4,389 bases of DNA from the IMG/VR virus record IMGVR_UViG_2531839666_000025, positions 1 through 4,389 of that record. One strand, 5' to 3'. Position 1 is the first letter of the stretch. Each line of letters begins with the position of its first letter. Below, one piece after another: positions 1-4,389 of this stretch. The notes under the pieces were generated by a model. The model had not been told where the DNA came from. It was given only the letters and a program-made list of their open reading frames with translations, and searched no databases. This stretch comes from a virus (lineage: Duplodnaviria > Heunggongvirae > Uroviricota > Caudoviricetes). The position numbers and the translations under genes were made by a program.

Positions 1-673
1 TTATTCCTGTGCCCAGCCAACCCTGTATGCCAGGATCTCATCCGCACTGCTCAGCGATTCCAGGTCCTTCTTCATGGTGCGCTGGCGAATGTGGATTTCC
101 ATCCCTTTAGTGAACATCGCCTGCTCTGCCGCTTCACTCAGCGCAATAAGCTCTTCTGCTGTCACCGGCACATCATTGTTTTCCGCATCCGTCCAGAAAA
201 ACGCCTCCGGCAGTTTCCCCGCTTTCGCTGCCGCCACCGACGGCTCAAGACGCGTCTGCGTTGACTTCCCGTAGTCCCATTTACGCCCATTGTGCTCAAA
301 CGTGTAGTTCGCCGCTTCCATCTCATTACGCCAGGCGTTAATTTCATCGCCCTTCATCCCGCGCGCTTTCTCCGCGGTCAGCAGGTCCGTGATTTTCTCC
401 CCGTCAAAAACCCCAGCGCCCCGAGATGTCAGCTTTGCGGTTTTCTTCCGTATCCGCCACCTCCACCACACTCTGGCCCACTGGCCACAGAACTGACGCC
501 ACCCTGCCGATGCCGGTAATGACTCCGGCACTGTTATAAACCACCTTCAGCGTCTCTGCTGAAAATAACGACTGACACTCATACCAGTCCTGACCATCCT
601 CTGATTTCAGGTACATCGCACCCGGCACATCCGGATTTTCCGGCGTGTATTGTCTGAAATTCTTTATGTGCAT
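1..673 (-). pseudogene. tfa: Tail fibre assembly protein (P2 gpG / Tfa chaperone family), reading frame broken by a 1-nt indel; intact equivalent would be about 223 aa
   Basis: Two overlapping minus-strand ORFs (673..404, 89 aa; 531..1, 176 aa) together resemble one Tfa. The first matches my recollection of the P2 gpG N-terminal region (SEDGQDWYE...KVVYNSAG...SVVEVADTEENRKADISGRWGF). The second matches the conserved C-terminal region of the tfa at 2905..3495 (INAWRNEME...RLEP...FFWTDAENNDV...). ATG at 673 is preceded by GGGAGGA with an 8-nt spacer; stop at 1..3. Confidence 0.75.
406..414 (-). other. Homopolymer tract (plus CCCC/AAAAA, minus TTTTTGGGG) where the tfa-1 frame switches
   Basis: Minus strand reads TGG GGT TTT TGA (W G F stop) in the upstream frame and GTT TTT GAC GGG GAG AAA (V F D G E K) in the downstream frame. 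Removing one T from the T5 run gives a continuous ...GRWGFDGEKITDLL... matching P2 gpG ...GKWMFKDGAVV... as I recall it. Confidence 0.7.
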
Positions 674-714: not shown

Positions 715-2448
715 TTATAACGAAAAATACTCACGCCCCGGCGCTCCTGACGACACATACTCACCAACACCAACGGTGCGCCAGTGAGAGCCATCAAACG
801 TCATCTGCAGCGGCCTGTAGTAAATCGTTGTAACACGGCTGACGCCGCCCTGAGTGTTCCCCGAAAGCCCTGTAATGACTGAACCATCAGCCAGATTAAC
901 TGACCAGCCATGGTCCCCCTCCTGCAACTCATACGTTACCGGATTCCCCAGCCTGAAGCCCATGACACGACTCTTCCCGTCATCTCCTGATGCCCCCGGC
1001 GGCCCCATCGGCCCGGTTTCTCCACGCTCACCTCTGGGACCGGGGTCGCCTTTCTCCCCTTTCGGTCCCTGCGCTCCCCGCGGACCAGCGGGGCCTGTTG
1101 CTCCCGTTTCACCTTTCGGACCCTGTGCTCCGGGGTCGCCTTTCTCTCCTTTCGGACCGGGAACACCACCTCCTGCTGCAGCCTCTTCTGCCTTTGTTTT
1201 CGCTTCATTTGCCACATCCATTGCCGCCTTCACGGCCTTCGGCGTGGCTGCCTTTGTTTCGTCATTACTGCCAGTATCACTGCTTAACTGCACCACACCT
1301 TTCTGCGTCGTGCTGGCATCCCGCTGGCTGACCGTATCCGGTTTGTTTTTTGTGCTGTAATCCACCCGCCAGTGGAAATACTGTGTGTCGCCGTAAACCG
1401 TACAGGTACAGACCGTGCCATTAATAAACCCCGTTGCACCGTATTCGCCAATGGTGACCCGGACTATGGCAGCCTCATACGTCCCCATCACCTCAATGAC
1501 ACAGCCACCCAGATTGAGTTTTCCCGGTCCGACATCCGTGATGACTTTATTCATTGACGCAGGCAGTGATGCCTTCATCATCCAGTAAGGCTGGTCAAAT
1601 GCCCCTTTTTCTTTCAGCCAGGCGACAAACTCGCTCGTGGTCCATTCACCGGCCCCCGTATGAATGTCCCGCCCGTATACTCTGGCTGCTCCCACGGTGT
1701 TCAGAAACTTCACCTTATCCGGGATATCGTCACCGTTTTTCGCTTTCTCCAGGCATCCGTCCGCTTTGTCCATTGCCGCTTTCACCGCTTTCGGGGTGGC
1801 TGCCTTCGTTTCATCATCACTGTCCGTTGCGCTGCTTAACTGCACAATTCCCTTCTGTGCCGTCGTCGCATCCGGTCCTCCCGGCTCGCCTTTTTCGCCC
1901 TTCTCTCCCCGTTCACCTTTCACACCCTGAAGCCCCTGTGGTCCTGTCTCACCACGCTCACCCTTTGGCCCCCGCTCGCCGGTATCGCCTTTTGGCCCGG
2001 GAATACCCTGCGGCCCGGTGTCCCCCTTATCCCCCTTCGGTCCCCGCGCATTCTCTGCCCGTTTTTTTGCCTCCTCCGCACTGGCTGCGGACGCTTCCGC
2101 ACGTTTCAGGATTTCCGCTGCCACCGCTTCCAGCTCTGCAAGGGCTTTCGGGTAATACTGTGCGTCTTCCAGGTCCATCAGAAATTTATTCAGCGTTCCC
2201 GGTGCAGAATCCGCCTTCACCAGAATGTCACCCACATATGACGGCGCGTACCCTTCCGTGTTCAGCGTCACCCGGTACAACCCCGGCTCAACATCCATAC
2301 TGTAACTGCCGGTTTCCCCCGGCTGACCATACGCCACCGTGGTGACAATCACCGTCTCCGTTGTGCGGCGCGCTTTCAGCTCTATCGTGCATCCCGGTAC
2401 CGCTTTTCCCGTACCATCCTTCAGCACACCCGATATTCTGACTGTCAT
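715..2448 (-). CDS. stf: Side tail fibre protein, 577 aa: lambda Stf-like N-terminal domain, two collagen-like Gly-X-Y tracts, two tail-fibre repeat motifs, a central globular domain and a short C-terminal domain
   Basis: N-terminus [28 protein letters not shown] resembles lambda Stf [28 protein letters not shown] (from memory). Uninterrupted Gly-X-Y at aa 136-192 and 428-491. Motif [30 protein letters not shown] occurs twice (aa 196-228, 380-412). ATG at 2448..2446 preceded by GGGGGA; TAA at 717..715. Confidence 0.9.
976..1167 (-). repeat. Collagen-like Gly-X-Y coding tract 2 (about 21 triplets, stf aa 428-491)
   Basis: Translation [64 protein letters not shown] with Gly at every third position. 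The proline-rich plus-strand ORFs here are its antisense shadow. Confidence 0.9.
1213..1311 (-). repeat. Tail-fibre repeat motif, copy 2 (stf aa 380-412), a diverged direct repeat of 1765..1863
   Basis: [33 protein letters not shown]. At DNA level, ...ccattgccgccttcacggccttcggcgtggctgcctttgtttc... here parallels ...ccattgccgctttcaccgctttcggggtggctgccttcgtttc... in copy 1. Confidence 0.85.
1765..1863 (-). repeat. Tail-fibre repeat motif, copy 1 (stf aa 196-228)
   Basis: [33 protein letters not shown]; same motif as in lambda Stf ([28 protein letters not shown], from memory). Confidence 0.85.
1873..2043 (-). repeat. Collagen-like Gly-X-Y coding tract 1 (about 19 triplets, stf aa 136-192)
   Basis: Translation [57 protein letters not shown] with Gly at every third position. 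Confidence 0.9.
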
Positions 2449-2453
2449 GGATT

Positions 2454-2459
2454 TCCCCC
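2454..2459 (-). promoter_or_regulatory. Probable Shine-Dalgarno sequence of stf
   Basis: Minus strand GGGGGA followed by AATCC then ATG (2448). Confidence 0.5.
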
Positions 2460-2461
2460 AT

Positions 2462-2496
2462 AAAAAAACCGCAGTACCGGTTTCCCGGCCTGCGGT
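2462..2496 (-). terminator. Intrinsic (rho-independent) terminator, probable 3' end of the hok-like transcript
   Basis: Minus strand ACCGCAG-GCCGG-GAAA-CCGGuA-CUGCGGU followed by UUUUUUU: outer 7-bp stem, inner 4-bp CCGG/CCGG stem, GAAA tetraloop, then a T7 run. The T-tract ends 13 nt before the stf ATG. Confidence 0.7.
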
Positions 2497-2559
2497 AAAA
2501 TTTGTGGTTTGTTGGTGTTAAAACGGTGCCATCCGGCTGACCACCCTCAGCAACCGGTC

Positions 2560-2582
2560 GGCGGGGGATATTCTCCCCCGCC
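2560..2582. repeat. Perfect 9-bp GC-rich inverted repeat with a 5-nt loop, in the 3' untranslated region of the hok-like gene
   Basis: Plus strand GGCGGGGGA-TATTC-TCCCCCGCC (2560-2568 pairs with 2574-2582). No adjacent T-run on either strand, so it is more likely a structural or stability element than a terminator. Confidence 0.5.
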
Positions 2583-2590
2583 ACGGTTTC

Positions 2591-2731
2591 TTACTGCTTA
2601 CACTGTAAGAACGCCGCAATCTCCGCGCCCGCTATCCGGAACCGGAACTCGCACAGTGAACTGTGGGTGATCCAGATAATGAGCACTACCGTGATACAAA
2701 TCACGGTGGTTTTTAACGGTTTTTGCGACAT
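2591..2731 (-). CDS. hok: Hok/Gef-family type I toxin, 46 aa (small single-pass membrane peptide)
   Basis: Hand translation of the minus strand gives MSQKPLKTTVICITVVLIIWITHSSLCEFRFRIAGAEIAAFLQCKQ. It has a hydrophobic helix (TVICITVVLIIWIT) followed by the Hok hallmark SLCE..R.....E(I/V)AAF..(C/Y)K; compare R1 Hok ...[28 protein letters not shown], recalled from memory. ATG at 2731..2729 preceded by AAGGAG with a 9-nt spacer; TAA at 2593..2591. Not in the supplied ORF track. Confidence 0.8.
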   Translation of the reverse strand: MSQKPLKTTVICITVVLIIWITHSSLCEFRFRIAGAEIAAFLQCKQ

Positions 2732-2740
2732 AAACGCTTG

Positions 2741-2746
2741 CTCCTT
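2741..2746 (-). promoter_or_regulatory. Shine-Dalgarno sequence of hok (AAGGAG) with an adjacent anti-SD
   Basis: Minus strand CCUCUCC-GUAAAA-GGAG-CAAGCGUUU-AUG. The CUCC immediately upstream can pair with GGAG (plus-strand palindrome ctcc-ttttac-ggag, 2741..2754). Confidence 0.6.
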
Positions 2747-2876
2747 TTACGGAGAGGCGCTAACCTTTCACTTGCTTAGGATGAATGGTCAGGCCTCGGG
2801 TTAAACATGAATGTTTGTCCGGGGCCTTTTCACATCCGGCCTTCAGGTGTTCCCTCCGGCCATCAGCCAAAGGCAC

Positions 2877-2898
2877 CCGTGCATAATGTACGGTTTTT
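2877..2898 (+). terminator. Candidate plus-strand intrinsic terminator, possibly the 3' end of an antisense (Sok-like) RNA; speculative
   Basis: Plus strand CCGUGCA-UAA-UGUACGG (7-bp stem with one G-U pair, 3-nt loop) followed by UUUUUAUU. It lies antisense to the predicted hok leader, immediately beyond the tfa-2 stop. No convincing promoter found upstream. Confidence 0.3.
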
Positions 2899-2904
2899 AT
2901 TCTG

Positions 2905-3495
2905 TTACGTAAATACCGGCTCCTCACTCCCCCAGCCGGGCTGATAGCACAGTACATCACGGTATCGCGTCATCCCCGCAATCTCCTGTTTCATCTGTCG
3001 CTGTCTTTCGTGGATCCTGAAACCGTGCGCCACCATCGCCTGTTTCATGGCAACACCCAGCGCCTTCAGTTCATCAGCGTCTACCGCCACATCATGATTA
3101 TCCGCATCTGTCCAGAAAAAACGTTCCGGTAAATGTTCTGTCACTGCAAGCACGGGCTCCAGACGGCTCAGTGAGCGCTTACCTGCATCCCAGCGTCGCC
3201 CCTGCCATTCAAACACAATTTCTTTATTTTCTTCCTCATTTCTCCAGATGTTAATCCTGTCGCATGCCTTCTCTTTTTCCTTTTCCAGCATATCCTGACT
3301 TTCACGCCACGGTGTCACCGCTCCATACTGACCACCGGCAATGGCGGCAAACAGTTCACGCCATATCACATCGGGATCATGCGGCATCACAACGATATCC
3401 ATCCAGCACTCCCCCGACGGTAACTTCATTTCAGCATGAATGTTTCCGCTTTCGTCATACCTCGCATGACGGATTTCTGTAACGATCTCCGGCAC
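2905..3495 (-). CDS. tfa: Tail fibre assembly protein (Tfa chaperone family), 196 aa, apparently intact
   Basis: C-terminal two-thirds (DRINIWRNEEE...RLEPVLAVTEHLPERFFWTDADNHDVAVDADELKALG...) is paralogous to tfa-1; the N-terminal about 85 aa differs. GTG start at 3495..3493, 9 nt after the upstream stop, preceded by AAGGGGGG; TAA at 2907..2905. Confidence 0.88.
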   Translation of the reverse strand: MPEIVTEIRHARYDESGNIHAEMKLPSGECWMDIVVMPHDPDVIWRELFAAIAGGQYGAVTPWRESQDMLEKEKEKACDRINIWRNEEENKEIVFEWQGRRWDAGKRSLSRLEPVLAVTEHLPERFFWTDADNHDVAVDADELKALGVAMKQAMVAHGFRIHERQRQMKQEIAGMTRYRDVLCYQPGWGSEEPVFT

Positions 3496-3504
3496 AATCC
3501 CCCC

Positions 3505-4389
3505 TTAAAGCACATGAACCTTCTCATTTCCTGCCCGGAATAACGTGCCACCGTTACATAGAACGCTGATCGTCACGCGACAGTTATAATTCAGGGGGTT
3601 ATGAAAGGCGCGCACGTAACGATACCGGACATAAATCCGGTTGCGGTTTCCCCTCCCCTTTGCCGGAAGCGTGAATCTGTAAATCCAGTCATAATTTTCC
3701 CACACCTTATGCTTCAAATTCCCGGGCCCCCATTCTCCTGACGACCAGACAGTGGCAATTCCACCATCTGCACTATCAGTGCCGACACTGACTTCCCACC
3801 AGGCAGAAACAAGACCAGGATTGCCCTCAGCTCTGAAGGCTATCTTCATGTTAACATCAAAAAAACGATCGAAGTTTTCCCCGTCAACATTCAGAAAAGG
3901 GATCCATTCGTTATCTCTCTCCTTTACACCATCCCGTGAGCTGACACCACTGAACACAACTTTATTGATTTCAAACAGGGAGCGGTAATAAACATCGCCA
4001 AGAATATTACCGGCATCCACTGTTCCTTTAACGACGCAGTTTTCTGCAATGGTCACGTTATTCAGCGTGCCCGAGTTCGCACTGATATGTCCGCTGATGT
4101 CCGCATTACGGGCCGTCAGCCTGCCGTCCGGCGTCAGGGAGAACGTCGGGGGATTGCCGGACGAGGTGATGCTCACCGCAAACAACCGCTTCAGGAACAC
4201 ATCGTTCATGAACAGCTGATTCCCCTGCGCCACAAACAGCGGCGTGGTGTTGCCGTTCTCCGGGTTAATCATCGCGATACGGTCCGCCTGCAGCAGTATA
4301 TTGCTCAGGGGCTGGCCATCAGCATCCTCAATCCCCGCACCTATACCGGCAACATACGGAATGCCGTTTTTTGTTTCTGCACCTTCAGC
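3505..4389 (-). CDS. J: Host specificity / central tail fibre protein (lambda gpJ-like), C-terminal 294 codons; N-terminus lies beyond the window
   Basis: The frame is open from the window edge ([17 protein letters not shown]...) through the track ORF to TAA at 3507..3505. The segment [22 protein letters not shown]...[38 protein letters not shown] matches my recollection of lambda J ([18 protein letters not shown]...[41 protein letters not shown]). The last about 190 aa do not resemble the lambda J C-terminus. Confidence 0.8.

What the first reader, a model, noticed from the sequence alone, without database searches (positions are those of the whole stretch)
2732..2904. Antisense (Sok-like) partner not located; only a weak plus-strand terminator candidate
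Hok-family loci are expected to carry a short antisense RNA against the leader. I could not identify a convincing plus-strand promoter in 2700..2880. The only candidate 3' end is the hairpin plus U-tract at 2877..2898. The locus may be antitoxin-less (inactive, or regulated differently), or the antisense promoter is too divergent to recognise by eye.
Basis: inference. Interest (0 to 1): 0.4.

Follow-up and report, generated by a model that had tools for sequence, protein, structure and literature searches.

The report
Missed Sok antisense RNA gene found

Summary
The interval is the leader of a hok toxin gene (2591-2731, minus strand), which sits between tail genes of a lambdoid prophage. However, it overlaps the hok -10 hexamer and transcription start, and it is strong in only 1 of 32 related variants. 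A canonical Sok gene was overlooked:
- -35 TTGCTC at 2738-2743, a 17-bp spacer, and -10 TAACCT at 2761-2766.
- Predicted start at T2773/G2774.
- A 19-nt single-stranded 5' tail.
- A hairpin at 2791-2827 (about -21 kcal/mol), followed by UUUU ending at 2830.

This layout matches Sok of plasmid R1, SokB/C/X/E of K-12 and SokW of phage 933W, which has the same -10 hexamer. A covariance model built only from five annotated Soks hits 2774-2835 on the plus strand (24.8 bits, E about 2e-6). Across 56 variants, the -10 is the most conserved non-coding segment. The hairpin covaries and is more stable on the Sok strand in 56 of 56.

Rfam's "sok" model actually describes the hok-sense leader, which explains its minus-strand hit. 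One departure from the canonical system is that no conserved mok reading frame exists. Expression was not tested. This is an ordinary, unannotated member of a known family, so interest is low.

The parts
2738..2743 (+). Sok promoter -35 hexamer, TTGCTC. It overlaps the hok Shine-Dalgarno GGAG (2744..2741) on the other strand.
   Evidence: It occupies the same position as the -35 of other Soks: R1 Sok TTGCGC, SokB TTGCCG, SokX/E TTGCCT and SokW TTGCCT. The TTG is nearly invariant in 56 variants.
2761..2766 (+). Sok promoter -10 hexamer, TAACCT, 17 bp after the -35.
   Evidence: It is identical to the -10 of sokW of phage 933W. Substitutions around the -10 element of sokW unmasked HokW toxicity (PMC8621323; primer sequences). 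It has the lowest entropy of all non-coding segments, 0.04 bits. The family pattern TTGC-N19-TAWCCT occurs once in 118 of 134 fetched loci, including R1 and 933W.
2773..2835 (+). Predicted Sok antisense RNA, about 58-64 nt. The 5' end is at T2773 or G2774 and the 3' end near 2830-2836.
   Evidence: A covariance model built from R1 Sok and SokC/B/X/E hits 2774-2835 on the plus strand over its full length, at 24.8 bits and E about 2e-6. There is no minus-strand hit there. The start is placed 7 nt after the -10, as in annotated sokB/X/E/W. Both ends are inferred, not measured.
2773..2790 (+). Single-stranded 5' tail of Sok, the recognition region. Its first 8 nt are complementary to the apical loop of the target hairpin.
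   Evidence: It is unpaired in the centroid fold. It is the most variable part of the cassette, at 1.0 bits, with 30 distinct tails in 56 variants.
2791..2830 (+). Sok terminator: a hairpin at 2791-2827 followed by a U-run ending at 2830.
   Evidence: It folds at -21.3 kcal/mol with z = -4.3. On a model-fitted alignment, 7 of 15 pairs show changes on both sides and the lower helix is 97% paired. Conserved U-G and G-U wobbles make the fold more stable on this strand than on the complement in 56 of 56 variants, by a mean of 6.8 kcal/mol.
2720..2878 (-). hok mRNA leader (the Rfam RF01794 match). The mRNA 5' end is predicted at G2878.
   Evidence: The match scores 55 bits, E = 1.2e-10, over the full-length model. 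RF01794 lies on the hok-sense strand in K-12 (one search compared).
2754..2797 (-). Sok target (sokT) hairpin in the hok leader. Its apical loop CCUAAGCAA contains a YUNR motif (CUAA).
   Evidence: It folds at -20 kcal/mol and forms in the isolated leader. It is kept, with compensatory changes, in 33 distinct variants, and the loop holds YUNR in 28 of them.
2591..2731 (-). hok toxin gene, 46 aa, with Shine-Dalgarno GGAG at 2744..2741.
   Evidence: Pfam HOK_GEF, E = 2.4e-11. RefSeq annotates the identical gene as a Hok/Gef family protein.
2877..2898 (+). It is not part of Sok.
   Evidence: It is real in this allele. Only 1 of 32 variants reaches -8 kcal/mol and most are weaker than -5.
2885..2913 (-). 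Predicted hok promoter: -35 TTTACG (2913..2908), a 17-bp spacer, -10 TACATT (2890..2885), and +1 at G2878.
   Evidence: Read directly from the sequence. A TA(C/G)A(T/A/G)T hexamer is kept at the same distance from GGGTG in relatives. The promoter is inferred.
2525..2539 (-). Fold-back (fbi-like) element that pairs with the hok mRNA 5' end (2878..2861).
   Evidence: In the minimum-energy fold of the 417-nt transcript, the 5' end pairs with this segment. The fold scores z = -7.5.
2462..2496 (-). hok transcription terminator: a hairpin plus U7, just upstream of the tail-fibre start codon at 2448.
   Evidence: Terminal hairpin and U-run in the fold and in the sequence.

Best explanation
The interval holds a complete Sok-type antitoxin gene, antisense to the leader of the prophage hok gene.

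Shown from the sequence and comparisons:
- A promoter, TTGCTC-17 bp-TAACCT, lies at 2738-2766.
- The RNA it would make runs from about 2773/2774 to about 2830-2836 on the plus strand.
- That RNA has a roughly 19-nt unstructured 5' tail and a single long terminator hairpin (2791-2827) with a short U-run.

Inferred by analogy with R1 hok/sok:
- The 5' tail contacts the YUNR-containing apical loop of the target hairpin (2754-2797) in the hok mRNA.
- Pairing then spreads into a duplex of about 58 bp covering leader nucleotides about 49-106.
- This duplex blocks Hok synthesis and marks the mRNA for RNase III cleavage.
- Full-length hok mRNA is additionally kept inert by pairing between its 5' and 3' ends.

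There is no mok frame here, so repression cannot work by blocking mok translation. How the duplex, which ends about 25 nt upstream of the hok ribosome-binding site, silences hok is unresolved.

The hairpin at 2877-2898 is the hok -10/+1 region read on the opposite strand. At most it is an allele-specific back-up stop for read-through transcripts.
For: - **Toxin and leader.** Hok is confirmed by Pfam. The hok leader is recognised by RF01794 at E = 1.2e-10. RF01794 proved to be hok-sense: in K-12 the annotated sokC/B/X/E lie inside its hits on the opposite strand (one search compared).
- **Promoter.** Its hexamers, 17-bp spacing and distance to the RNA start match R1 Sok, SokB, SokX, SokE and SokW. 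The -10 TAACCT is identical to that of sokW, where substitutions around the -10 element unmasked HokW toxicity (PMC8621323).
- **Independent model.** A covariance model built from five annotated Soks, none from this subfamily, hits 2774-2835 on the plus strand over its full length, at 24.8 bits and E about 2e-6.
- **Fold.** The hairpin folds at -21 kcal/mol, z = -4.3.
- **Conservation.** In 56 distinct relatives the -10 entropy is 0.04 bits.
- **Covariation.** The hairpin has 7 of 15 covarying pairs.
- **Strand asymmetry.** The hairpin is more stable on the Sok strand in 56 of 56 variants.
- **Target.** The target hairpin with a YUNR loop is maintained.
- **Fold-back.** The hok mRNA 5' and 3' ends pair in the predicted fold.
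Against: - No transcript data exist. The 5' and 3' ends and the expression itself are inferred.
- The hexamers match the sigma-70 consensus at only 6 of 12 positions, and the generic scan reports no promoter.
- The minimal promoter pattern is expected about once per window by chance.
- The U-run is only 4 nt long.
- Every conserved Sok feature is also hok-leader sequence on the other strand: the -35 overlaps the hok ribosome-binding site, and the -10 overlaps the 3' arm of the target hairpin. Conservation alone therefore cannot separate the two strands. Only the wobble-pair asymmetry does.
- RF01794 scores below its gathering threshold (55 against 59 bits).
- The absence of mok means the R1 mechanism cannot be transferred in full.
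Confidence: 0.85

Rival explanations
1. A long Sok isoform. Plus-strand transcription from the same promoter runs through the weak U4 terminator and ends at the first reader's hairpin plus U5 (2877-2898), giving an RNA of about 125 nt that covers the whole hok 5' leader.
For: The hairpin and T5 are real in this allele. The Sok terminator U-run is short. The 134-nt plus-strand stretch folds well, z = -3.1.
Against: - Only 1 of 32 variants has a hairpin of -8 kcal/mol or stronger there, and most are weaker than -5.
- All annotated Soks end just after the first hairpin, despite similar short U-runs.
- The sequence is explained by the hok -10 hexamer and +1 on the other strand.
Confidence: 0.1
2. 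An antitoxin-less or decayed locus. The conserved plus-strand features only mirror constraints on the hok mRNA leader (ribosome-binding site, target-like hairpin, fold-back elements), and no functional antisense RNA is made.
For: The generic scan finds no promoter. All Sok features overlap hok-leader elements. RefSeq and phage records annotate no sok here. RF01794 is below its gathering score.
Against: - U-G and G-U wobbles make the hairpin better on the plus strand in 56 of 56 variants. They would be A-C mismatches in the hok mRNA.
- The -10 hexamer is the most conserved non-coding segment and is identical to the sokW -10.
- The Sok-only model hits the plus strand.
- An intact toxic hok with its own promoter and ribosome-binding site but no antitoxin would be hard to maintain at up to 7 copies per genome.
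Confidence: 0.05

Closest known systems
hok/sok (parB) of plasmid R1
   Same: - A Hok/Gef toxin.
- The antisense gene lies inside the hok leader.
- The promoter is of the same type: TTGC..-17 bp-TA.CCT (R1: TTGCGC/TATCCT).
- The RNA has a 5' single-stranded tail, one long hairpin and a short U-run, about 60 nt in all.
- The hok leader has a target hairpin with a YUNR loop.
- The hok mRNA 5' and 3' ends pair.
   Different: - There is no mok reading frame. In R1, mok starts 58 nt upstream of hok and runs 70 codons.
- Hok is shorter, 46 aa.
- The locus sits among prophage tail genes rather than on a plasmid.
- The Sok tail sequence is unrelated.
Chromosomal sokB, sokC, sokX and sokE of E. coli K-12
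   Same: The promoter layout and the distance from the -10 to the annotated 5' end are the same. The 5' end motif is similar (UGCU.AGG in SokB against UGCUUAGG here), as is the core of the lower stem (GGCCUCGG...CCGGGGCC).
   Different: RF01794 scores 104-118 bits for hokC, hokB and hokX against 55 here. mokB and mokC are present there. The upper stem and loop differ.
hokW/mokW/sokW of Stx phages 933W and Sp5 (Takada et al. 2021, PMC8621323)
   Same: It is prophage-borne. The -10 hexamer TAACCT and the 17-bp spacer are identical. Antitoxin function was shown experimentally for sokW.
   Different: It is a different locus, not the orthologue.
- HokW starts MKQQKAM and is 51 aa long.
- mokW is present.
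- It lies elsewhere in the phage genome.
- The Stx-phage relative of this window is a second, unstudied hok next to lom, about 78% identical.

Membership tests
[quoted passage not shown] | An adjacent Hok/Gef family toxin gene on the opposite strand | tested here: met
   Pfam PF01848, E = 2.4e-11, 43.5 bits against a cut-off of 22.
[quoted passage not shown] | The antisense gene lies inside the hok leader, between the hok +1 and the hok ribosome-binding site | tested here: met
   The Sok model hit at 2774-2835 (+) lies inside the RF01794 leader hit at 2720-2878 (-). sokC, sokB and sokX lie inside their hits in the same way.
[quoted passage not shown] | Sequence and structure similarity to known Sok RNAs: a 5' tail, one long hairpin and a short U-run, about 55-65 nt | tested here: met
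   The covariance model from 5 annotated Soks scores 24.8 bits, E about 2e-6, full length, on the plus strand only. The fold is -21 kcal/mol.
[quoted passage not shown] | A Sok-type promoter at the conserved position | tested here: met
   TTGCTC-17 bp-TAACCT at 2738-2766, compared with R1, SokB, SokX, SokE and SokW. The generic sigma-70 scan is negative.
[quoted passage not shown] | A target stem-loop in the hok mRNA that presents the complement of the Sok 5' end in a YUNR loop | tested here: met
   Predicted hairpin at 2754-2797 with loop CCUAAGCAA. The loop holds YUNR in 28 of 33 variants. This is in silico only.
[quoted passage not shown] | Fold-back pairing of the hok mRNA 5' end with a 3' element (tac/fbi) | tested here: met
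   The minimum-energy fold of 2878..2462 pairs the 5' end with 2539..2525, z = -7.5. This is in silico only.
[quoted passage not shown] | A mok reading frame that starts in the Sok target and overlaps hok (translational coupling) | tested here: not met
   No ATG/GTG/TTG frame in the leader runs past the hok start in the window or in 48 of 80 variants. The R1, hokB and hokC controls all have one.
[quoted passage not shown] | An Rfam RF01794 match at or above the gathering score | tested here: not met
   55.0 bits against a gathering score of 59, though E = 1.2e-10 and the full model is matched. The model describes the hok-sense leader, not Sok itself.
[quoted passage not shown] | The antisense RNA is transcribed and neutralises Hok | not testable with these tools
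   No transcript or toxicity data exist for this subfamily in the records or papers searched.
hokW/sokW locus of Sp5 and 933W | Orthology to the experimentally studied locus: HokW starting MKQQKAM, mokW present | tested here: not met
   Primer and record sequences show a different toxin and the presence of mokW at another genome position.

The most novel reading that the evidence does not exclude
This tail-region prophage hok/sok subfamily works without mok. Sok would then silence hok by a route other than blocking a coupled leader frame, for example RNase III cleavage or loss of a ribosome standby or activating structure. The hypervariable Sok 5' tail and target loop would act as an address code that keeps the many co-resident and tandem cassettes (up to 7 per genome) from cross-talking.
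Probability: 0.3. Interest if true: 0.4.

Novelty: new member of a known kind. Interest (0 to 1): 0.15.

Why it matters
The practical value is for annotation.
- This widespread prophage hok cassette matched 1,530 of 5,426 complete E. coli genomes at some level. It carries an unannotated Sok gene.
- Its score falls just under Rfam's threshold.
- Rfam's "sok" model is oriented on the hok strand. Automated annotation will therefore either miss the antitoxin or place it on the wrong strand.

Biologically it shows the locus is a complete toxin-antitoxin pair, not an orphan toxin. The missing mok frame and the hypervariable recognition tail are modest leads on how hok/sok specificity and control diversify in prophages.

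Tried and rejected
- **Generic promoter scan.** The sigma-70 consensus scan found nothing. I did not take this as evidence of absence, because bona fide Sok promoters share the same weak hexamers.
- **Wrong label for the Stx-phage relative.** I first called the Stx-phage relative of the window (L002) "hokW" and treated Takada et al. 2021 as direct evidence. The primer sequences and the 933W record showed that hokW/sokW is a different locus. I corrected this. Only the identical -10 hexamer and the general precedent carry over.
- **Leader reading frames.** I looked for a mok or a conserved short leader frame. The candidates in the window are an ATG at 2812..2810 (10 codons) and a GTG at 2771..2769 (3 codons), and some relatives have a long frame starting 130 nt upstream of hok. 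None is conserved, so I rejected them.
Rejected on conservation grounds.
- **Literature.** A search for 'CssrC' gave nothing relevant. The supplements of the sokW paper are not held.

Full report
**Context**

All genes in the window lie on the minus strand and belong to the tail region of a lambdoid prophage. In order they are:
- the C-terminal part of the tail-tip protein J (3505..4272);
- a DUF4376 tail-fibre-assembly-like gene (2905..3495);
- a 46-aa Hok/Gef toxin gene (2591..2731; Pfam HOK_GEF, E = 2.4e-11);
- a collagen-repeat tail fibre (715..2448);
- a second DUF4376 gene.

Near-identical cassettes occur in E. coli prophages and in phage 1720a-02. There the toxin is annotated as a Hok/Gef family protein or as hypothetical, and no sok is annotated. 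Relatives about 78% identical lie next to lom in Stx phages.

**Checking the observation**

The hairpin CCGTGCA-TAA-TGTACGG (2877-2893) with its T-run (2894-2898) is real. It folds at -8.6 kcal/mol with z = -2.1. A generic sigma-70 scan finds no promoter in 2400-3000.

It folds at about -21 kcal/mol with z = -4.3, and is followed by UUUU ending at 2830.

**What Rfam says, and a caveat**

RF01794 ("sok") matches 2720-2878 on the minus strand over the full model, at 55 bits (gathering score 59) and E = 1.2e-10.

I tested the model's orientation on K-12. Its hits at hokC, hokB, hokX and hokE are always on the strand opposite to the RefSeq-annotated sokC, sokB, sokX and sokE, and those genes lie inside the hits (one search compared). 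RF01794 therefore models the hok mRNA leader, and the real Sok is encoded on the other strand within it. For this window that predicts a plus-strand gene at roughly 2771-2835.

**The Sok gene**

I compared promoters of annotated Soks on the Sok-sense strand:

| RNA | -35 | spacer | -10 |
|---|---|---|---|
| R1 Sok | TTGCGC | 17 | TATCCT |
| SokB | TTGCCG | 17 | TAAGAT |
| SokX | TTGCCT | 17 | TAACAT |
| SokE | TTGCCT | 17 | TACCAT |
| SokW (933W) | TTGCCT | 17 | TAACCT |
| window | TTGCTC (2738-2743) | 17 | TAACCT (2761-2766) |

- In sokB, sokX, sokE and sokW the annotated 5' end is the seventh or eighth base after the -10. That places the start here at T2773 or G2774.
- The -10 is identical to that of sokW. 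In that system, substitutions around the -10 element of sokW unmasked HokW toxicity, and sokW supplied in trans partly restored growth (PMC8621323).
- The minimal pattern TTG-N20-TANNNT occurs only once in the window, at this site, but about one match is expected by chance. The argument therefore rests on position and conservation.
- The family pattern TTGC-N19-TAWCCT occurs exactly once in 118 of the 134 fetched loci, including R1 and 933W.

**Independent model test**

I built a covariance model only from R1 Sok and SokC, SokB, SokX and SokE. It hits the window at 2774-2835 on the plus strand over its full length, at 24.8 bits and E about 2e-6. There is no minus-strand hit at that place. The predicted RNA has a 19-nt tail, UGCUUAGGAUGAAUGGUCA, then the hairpin, then UUUU.

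**Comparative evidence**

I collected relatives with a pattern anchored in the hok C-terminal codons, so the sok region was not pre-selected. This gave 125 copies and 55 distinct sok regions.
- The -10 hexamer is the most conserved non-coding segment, at 0.04 bits. The 5' tail is the most variable, at 1.0 bits.
- Every one of 56 variants folds into the tail-plus-hairpin shape. The fold is always more stable on the Sok strand than on the complement, by a mean of 6.8 kcal/mol, because of 2-4 G-U pairs.
- On a model-fitted alignment, 7 of 15 pairs change on both sides. The lower helix is 97% paired. A U-G wobble is present in 36 of 39 distinct sequences. Those wobbles would be A-C mismatches in the hok mRNA, so this is strand-specific evidence for a selected plus-strand RNA.

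**hok-side anatomy**

- The isolated leader folds into a target hairpin (2754-2797) whose apical loop, CCUAAGCAA, carries a YUNR motif and is complementary to the first 8 nt of Sok.
- The hairpin is kept, with compensatory changes, in 33 distinct variants.
- In the full 417-nt transcript (2878..2462), the 5' end pairs with 2539..2525. The transcript ends in a hairpin plus U7, and the fold scores z = -7.5.

These features match the R1 architecture as I know it from the Gerdes-laboratory literature. That comparison rests on my own knowledge, not on a paper read here.

On the minus strand this stretch reads TTTACG-17 bp-TACATT-6 nt-GGGTGCC. That is a plausible hok promoter followed by the mRNA 5' end.

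Among 32 variants of this segment, the TA(C/G)A(T/A/G)T hexamer and its distance to GGGTG are kept. The hairpin is not: only the window's allele reaches -8.6 kcal/mol, and 30 of 32 are weaker than -5. It is therefore not the conserved Sok 3' end. At most it stops read-through transcripts in this allele.

**Mechanism**

Shown: the promoter-like site, the RNA shape, its complementarity to leader nucleotides about 49-106, and conservation with strand asymmetry.

Inferred: transcription itself, the exact ends, loop-tail initiation of pairing, duplex formation and RNase III cleavage.

One defining R1 feature fails. No mok frame overlaps hok in the window, in the Stx-phage relative, or in 48 of 80 variants, whereas R1, hokB and hokC all have one. 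The leader frame is closed by TAG at 2762..2760, which is the complement of the Sok -10. How Sok silences hok here is therefore open.

A correction to my own work: I first equated the Stx-phage relative with the published hokW. Primer sequences and the 933W record show that hokW/mokW/sokW is a separate locus. I found no experimental work on the window's subfamily. A recent survey of Hok diversity deliberately left Sok and Mok unanalysed (10.1101/2025.08.07.668861).

**Verdict**

The antitoxin partner is present and ordinary. The finding records a reading miss, not a biological anomaly. It is an unannotated new member of a known kind, and interest is low. The mok-less leader and the hypervariable Sok tail are the only mildly unusual points.

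Noticed in passing
window 2720-2878 (-); L004, L005, L008, L010: Rfam RF01794 'sok antitoxin' is modelled on the hok-mRNA sense strand. Its hits lie opposite to the RefSeq-annotated sokC, sokB, sokX and sokE and are about 157 nt long, against about 60 nt for Sok. Annotation taken from it puts sok on the wrong strand (one search compared).
   Followed up: yes
window 2732-2878 (-): No mok reading frame. All frames are closed between the Sok target and the hok ribosome-binding site, and TAG at 2762..2760 is the complement of the Sok -10. The same holds in the Stx-phage relative and in 48 of 80 variants. R1, hokB and hokC controls have mok.
   Followed up: partly
window 2777-2790 (+): The Sok 5' tail, which is also the loop side of the target hairpin, is the most variable stretch of the cassette. 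It scores 1.03 bits against 0.55 at hok third-codon positions, with 30 distinct tails among 56 variants. This may be diversification of the recognition sequence.
   Followed up: partly
L031 12937-14011; L114 131-734; L027 4344-5199: Some viral contigs carry two or three tandem hok/sok cassettes about 0.5 kb apart, each with a different Sok tail. E. coli genomes hold up to 7 matching places.
   Followed up: partly
window 1-673 (-): The DUF4376/tail-fibre-assembly gene downstream of the tail fibre is split into two overlapping frames. The cause is one extra A in an A-run near 402-406, compared with the intact 223-aa gene of L001. This is a frameshift, a pseudogene or a sequencing error.
   Followed up: yes
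window 2899-3495: Homology of the hok/sok cassette to relatives stops at 2898. This window has an extra DUF4376 gene (2905..3495) between J and hok that L001 and phage 1720a-02 lack. The tail region is mosaic.
   Followed up: no
L014 (Vagococcus sp. contig), L012 (Planococcaceae MAG contig): The same enterobacterial prophage hok cassette appears on contigs labelled as Firmicutes genomes. This is probably assembly or binning contamination.
   Followed up: no
L002 1570-1859; L134 334-608: Stx phages carry two distinct hok loci. One is the studied hokW/mokW/sokW. The other is an unstudied lom-adjacent hok related to this window, variously labelled 'MokW-like host killing', 'host toxic membrane protein' or hypothetical.
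   Followed up: partly
window 2448-2500 (-): The hok terminator (a hairpin plus U7) ends 13 nt before the tail-fibre start codon. The whole cassette is co-oriented with the late tail genes. Late read-through transcription would therefore cross the hok gene and run head-on into the Sok promoter. This is an inference only.
   Followed up: no
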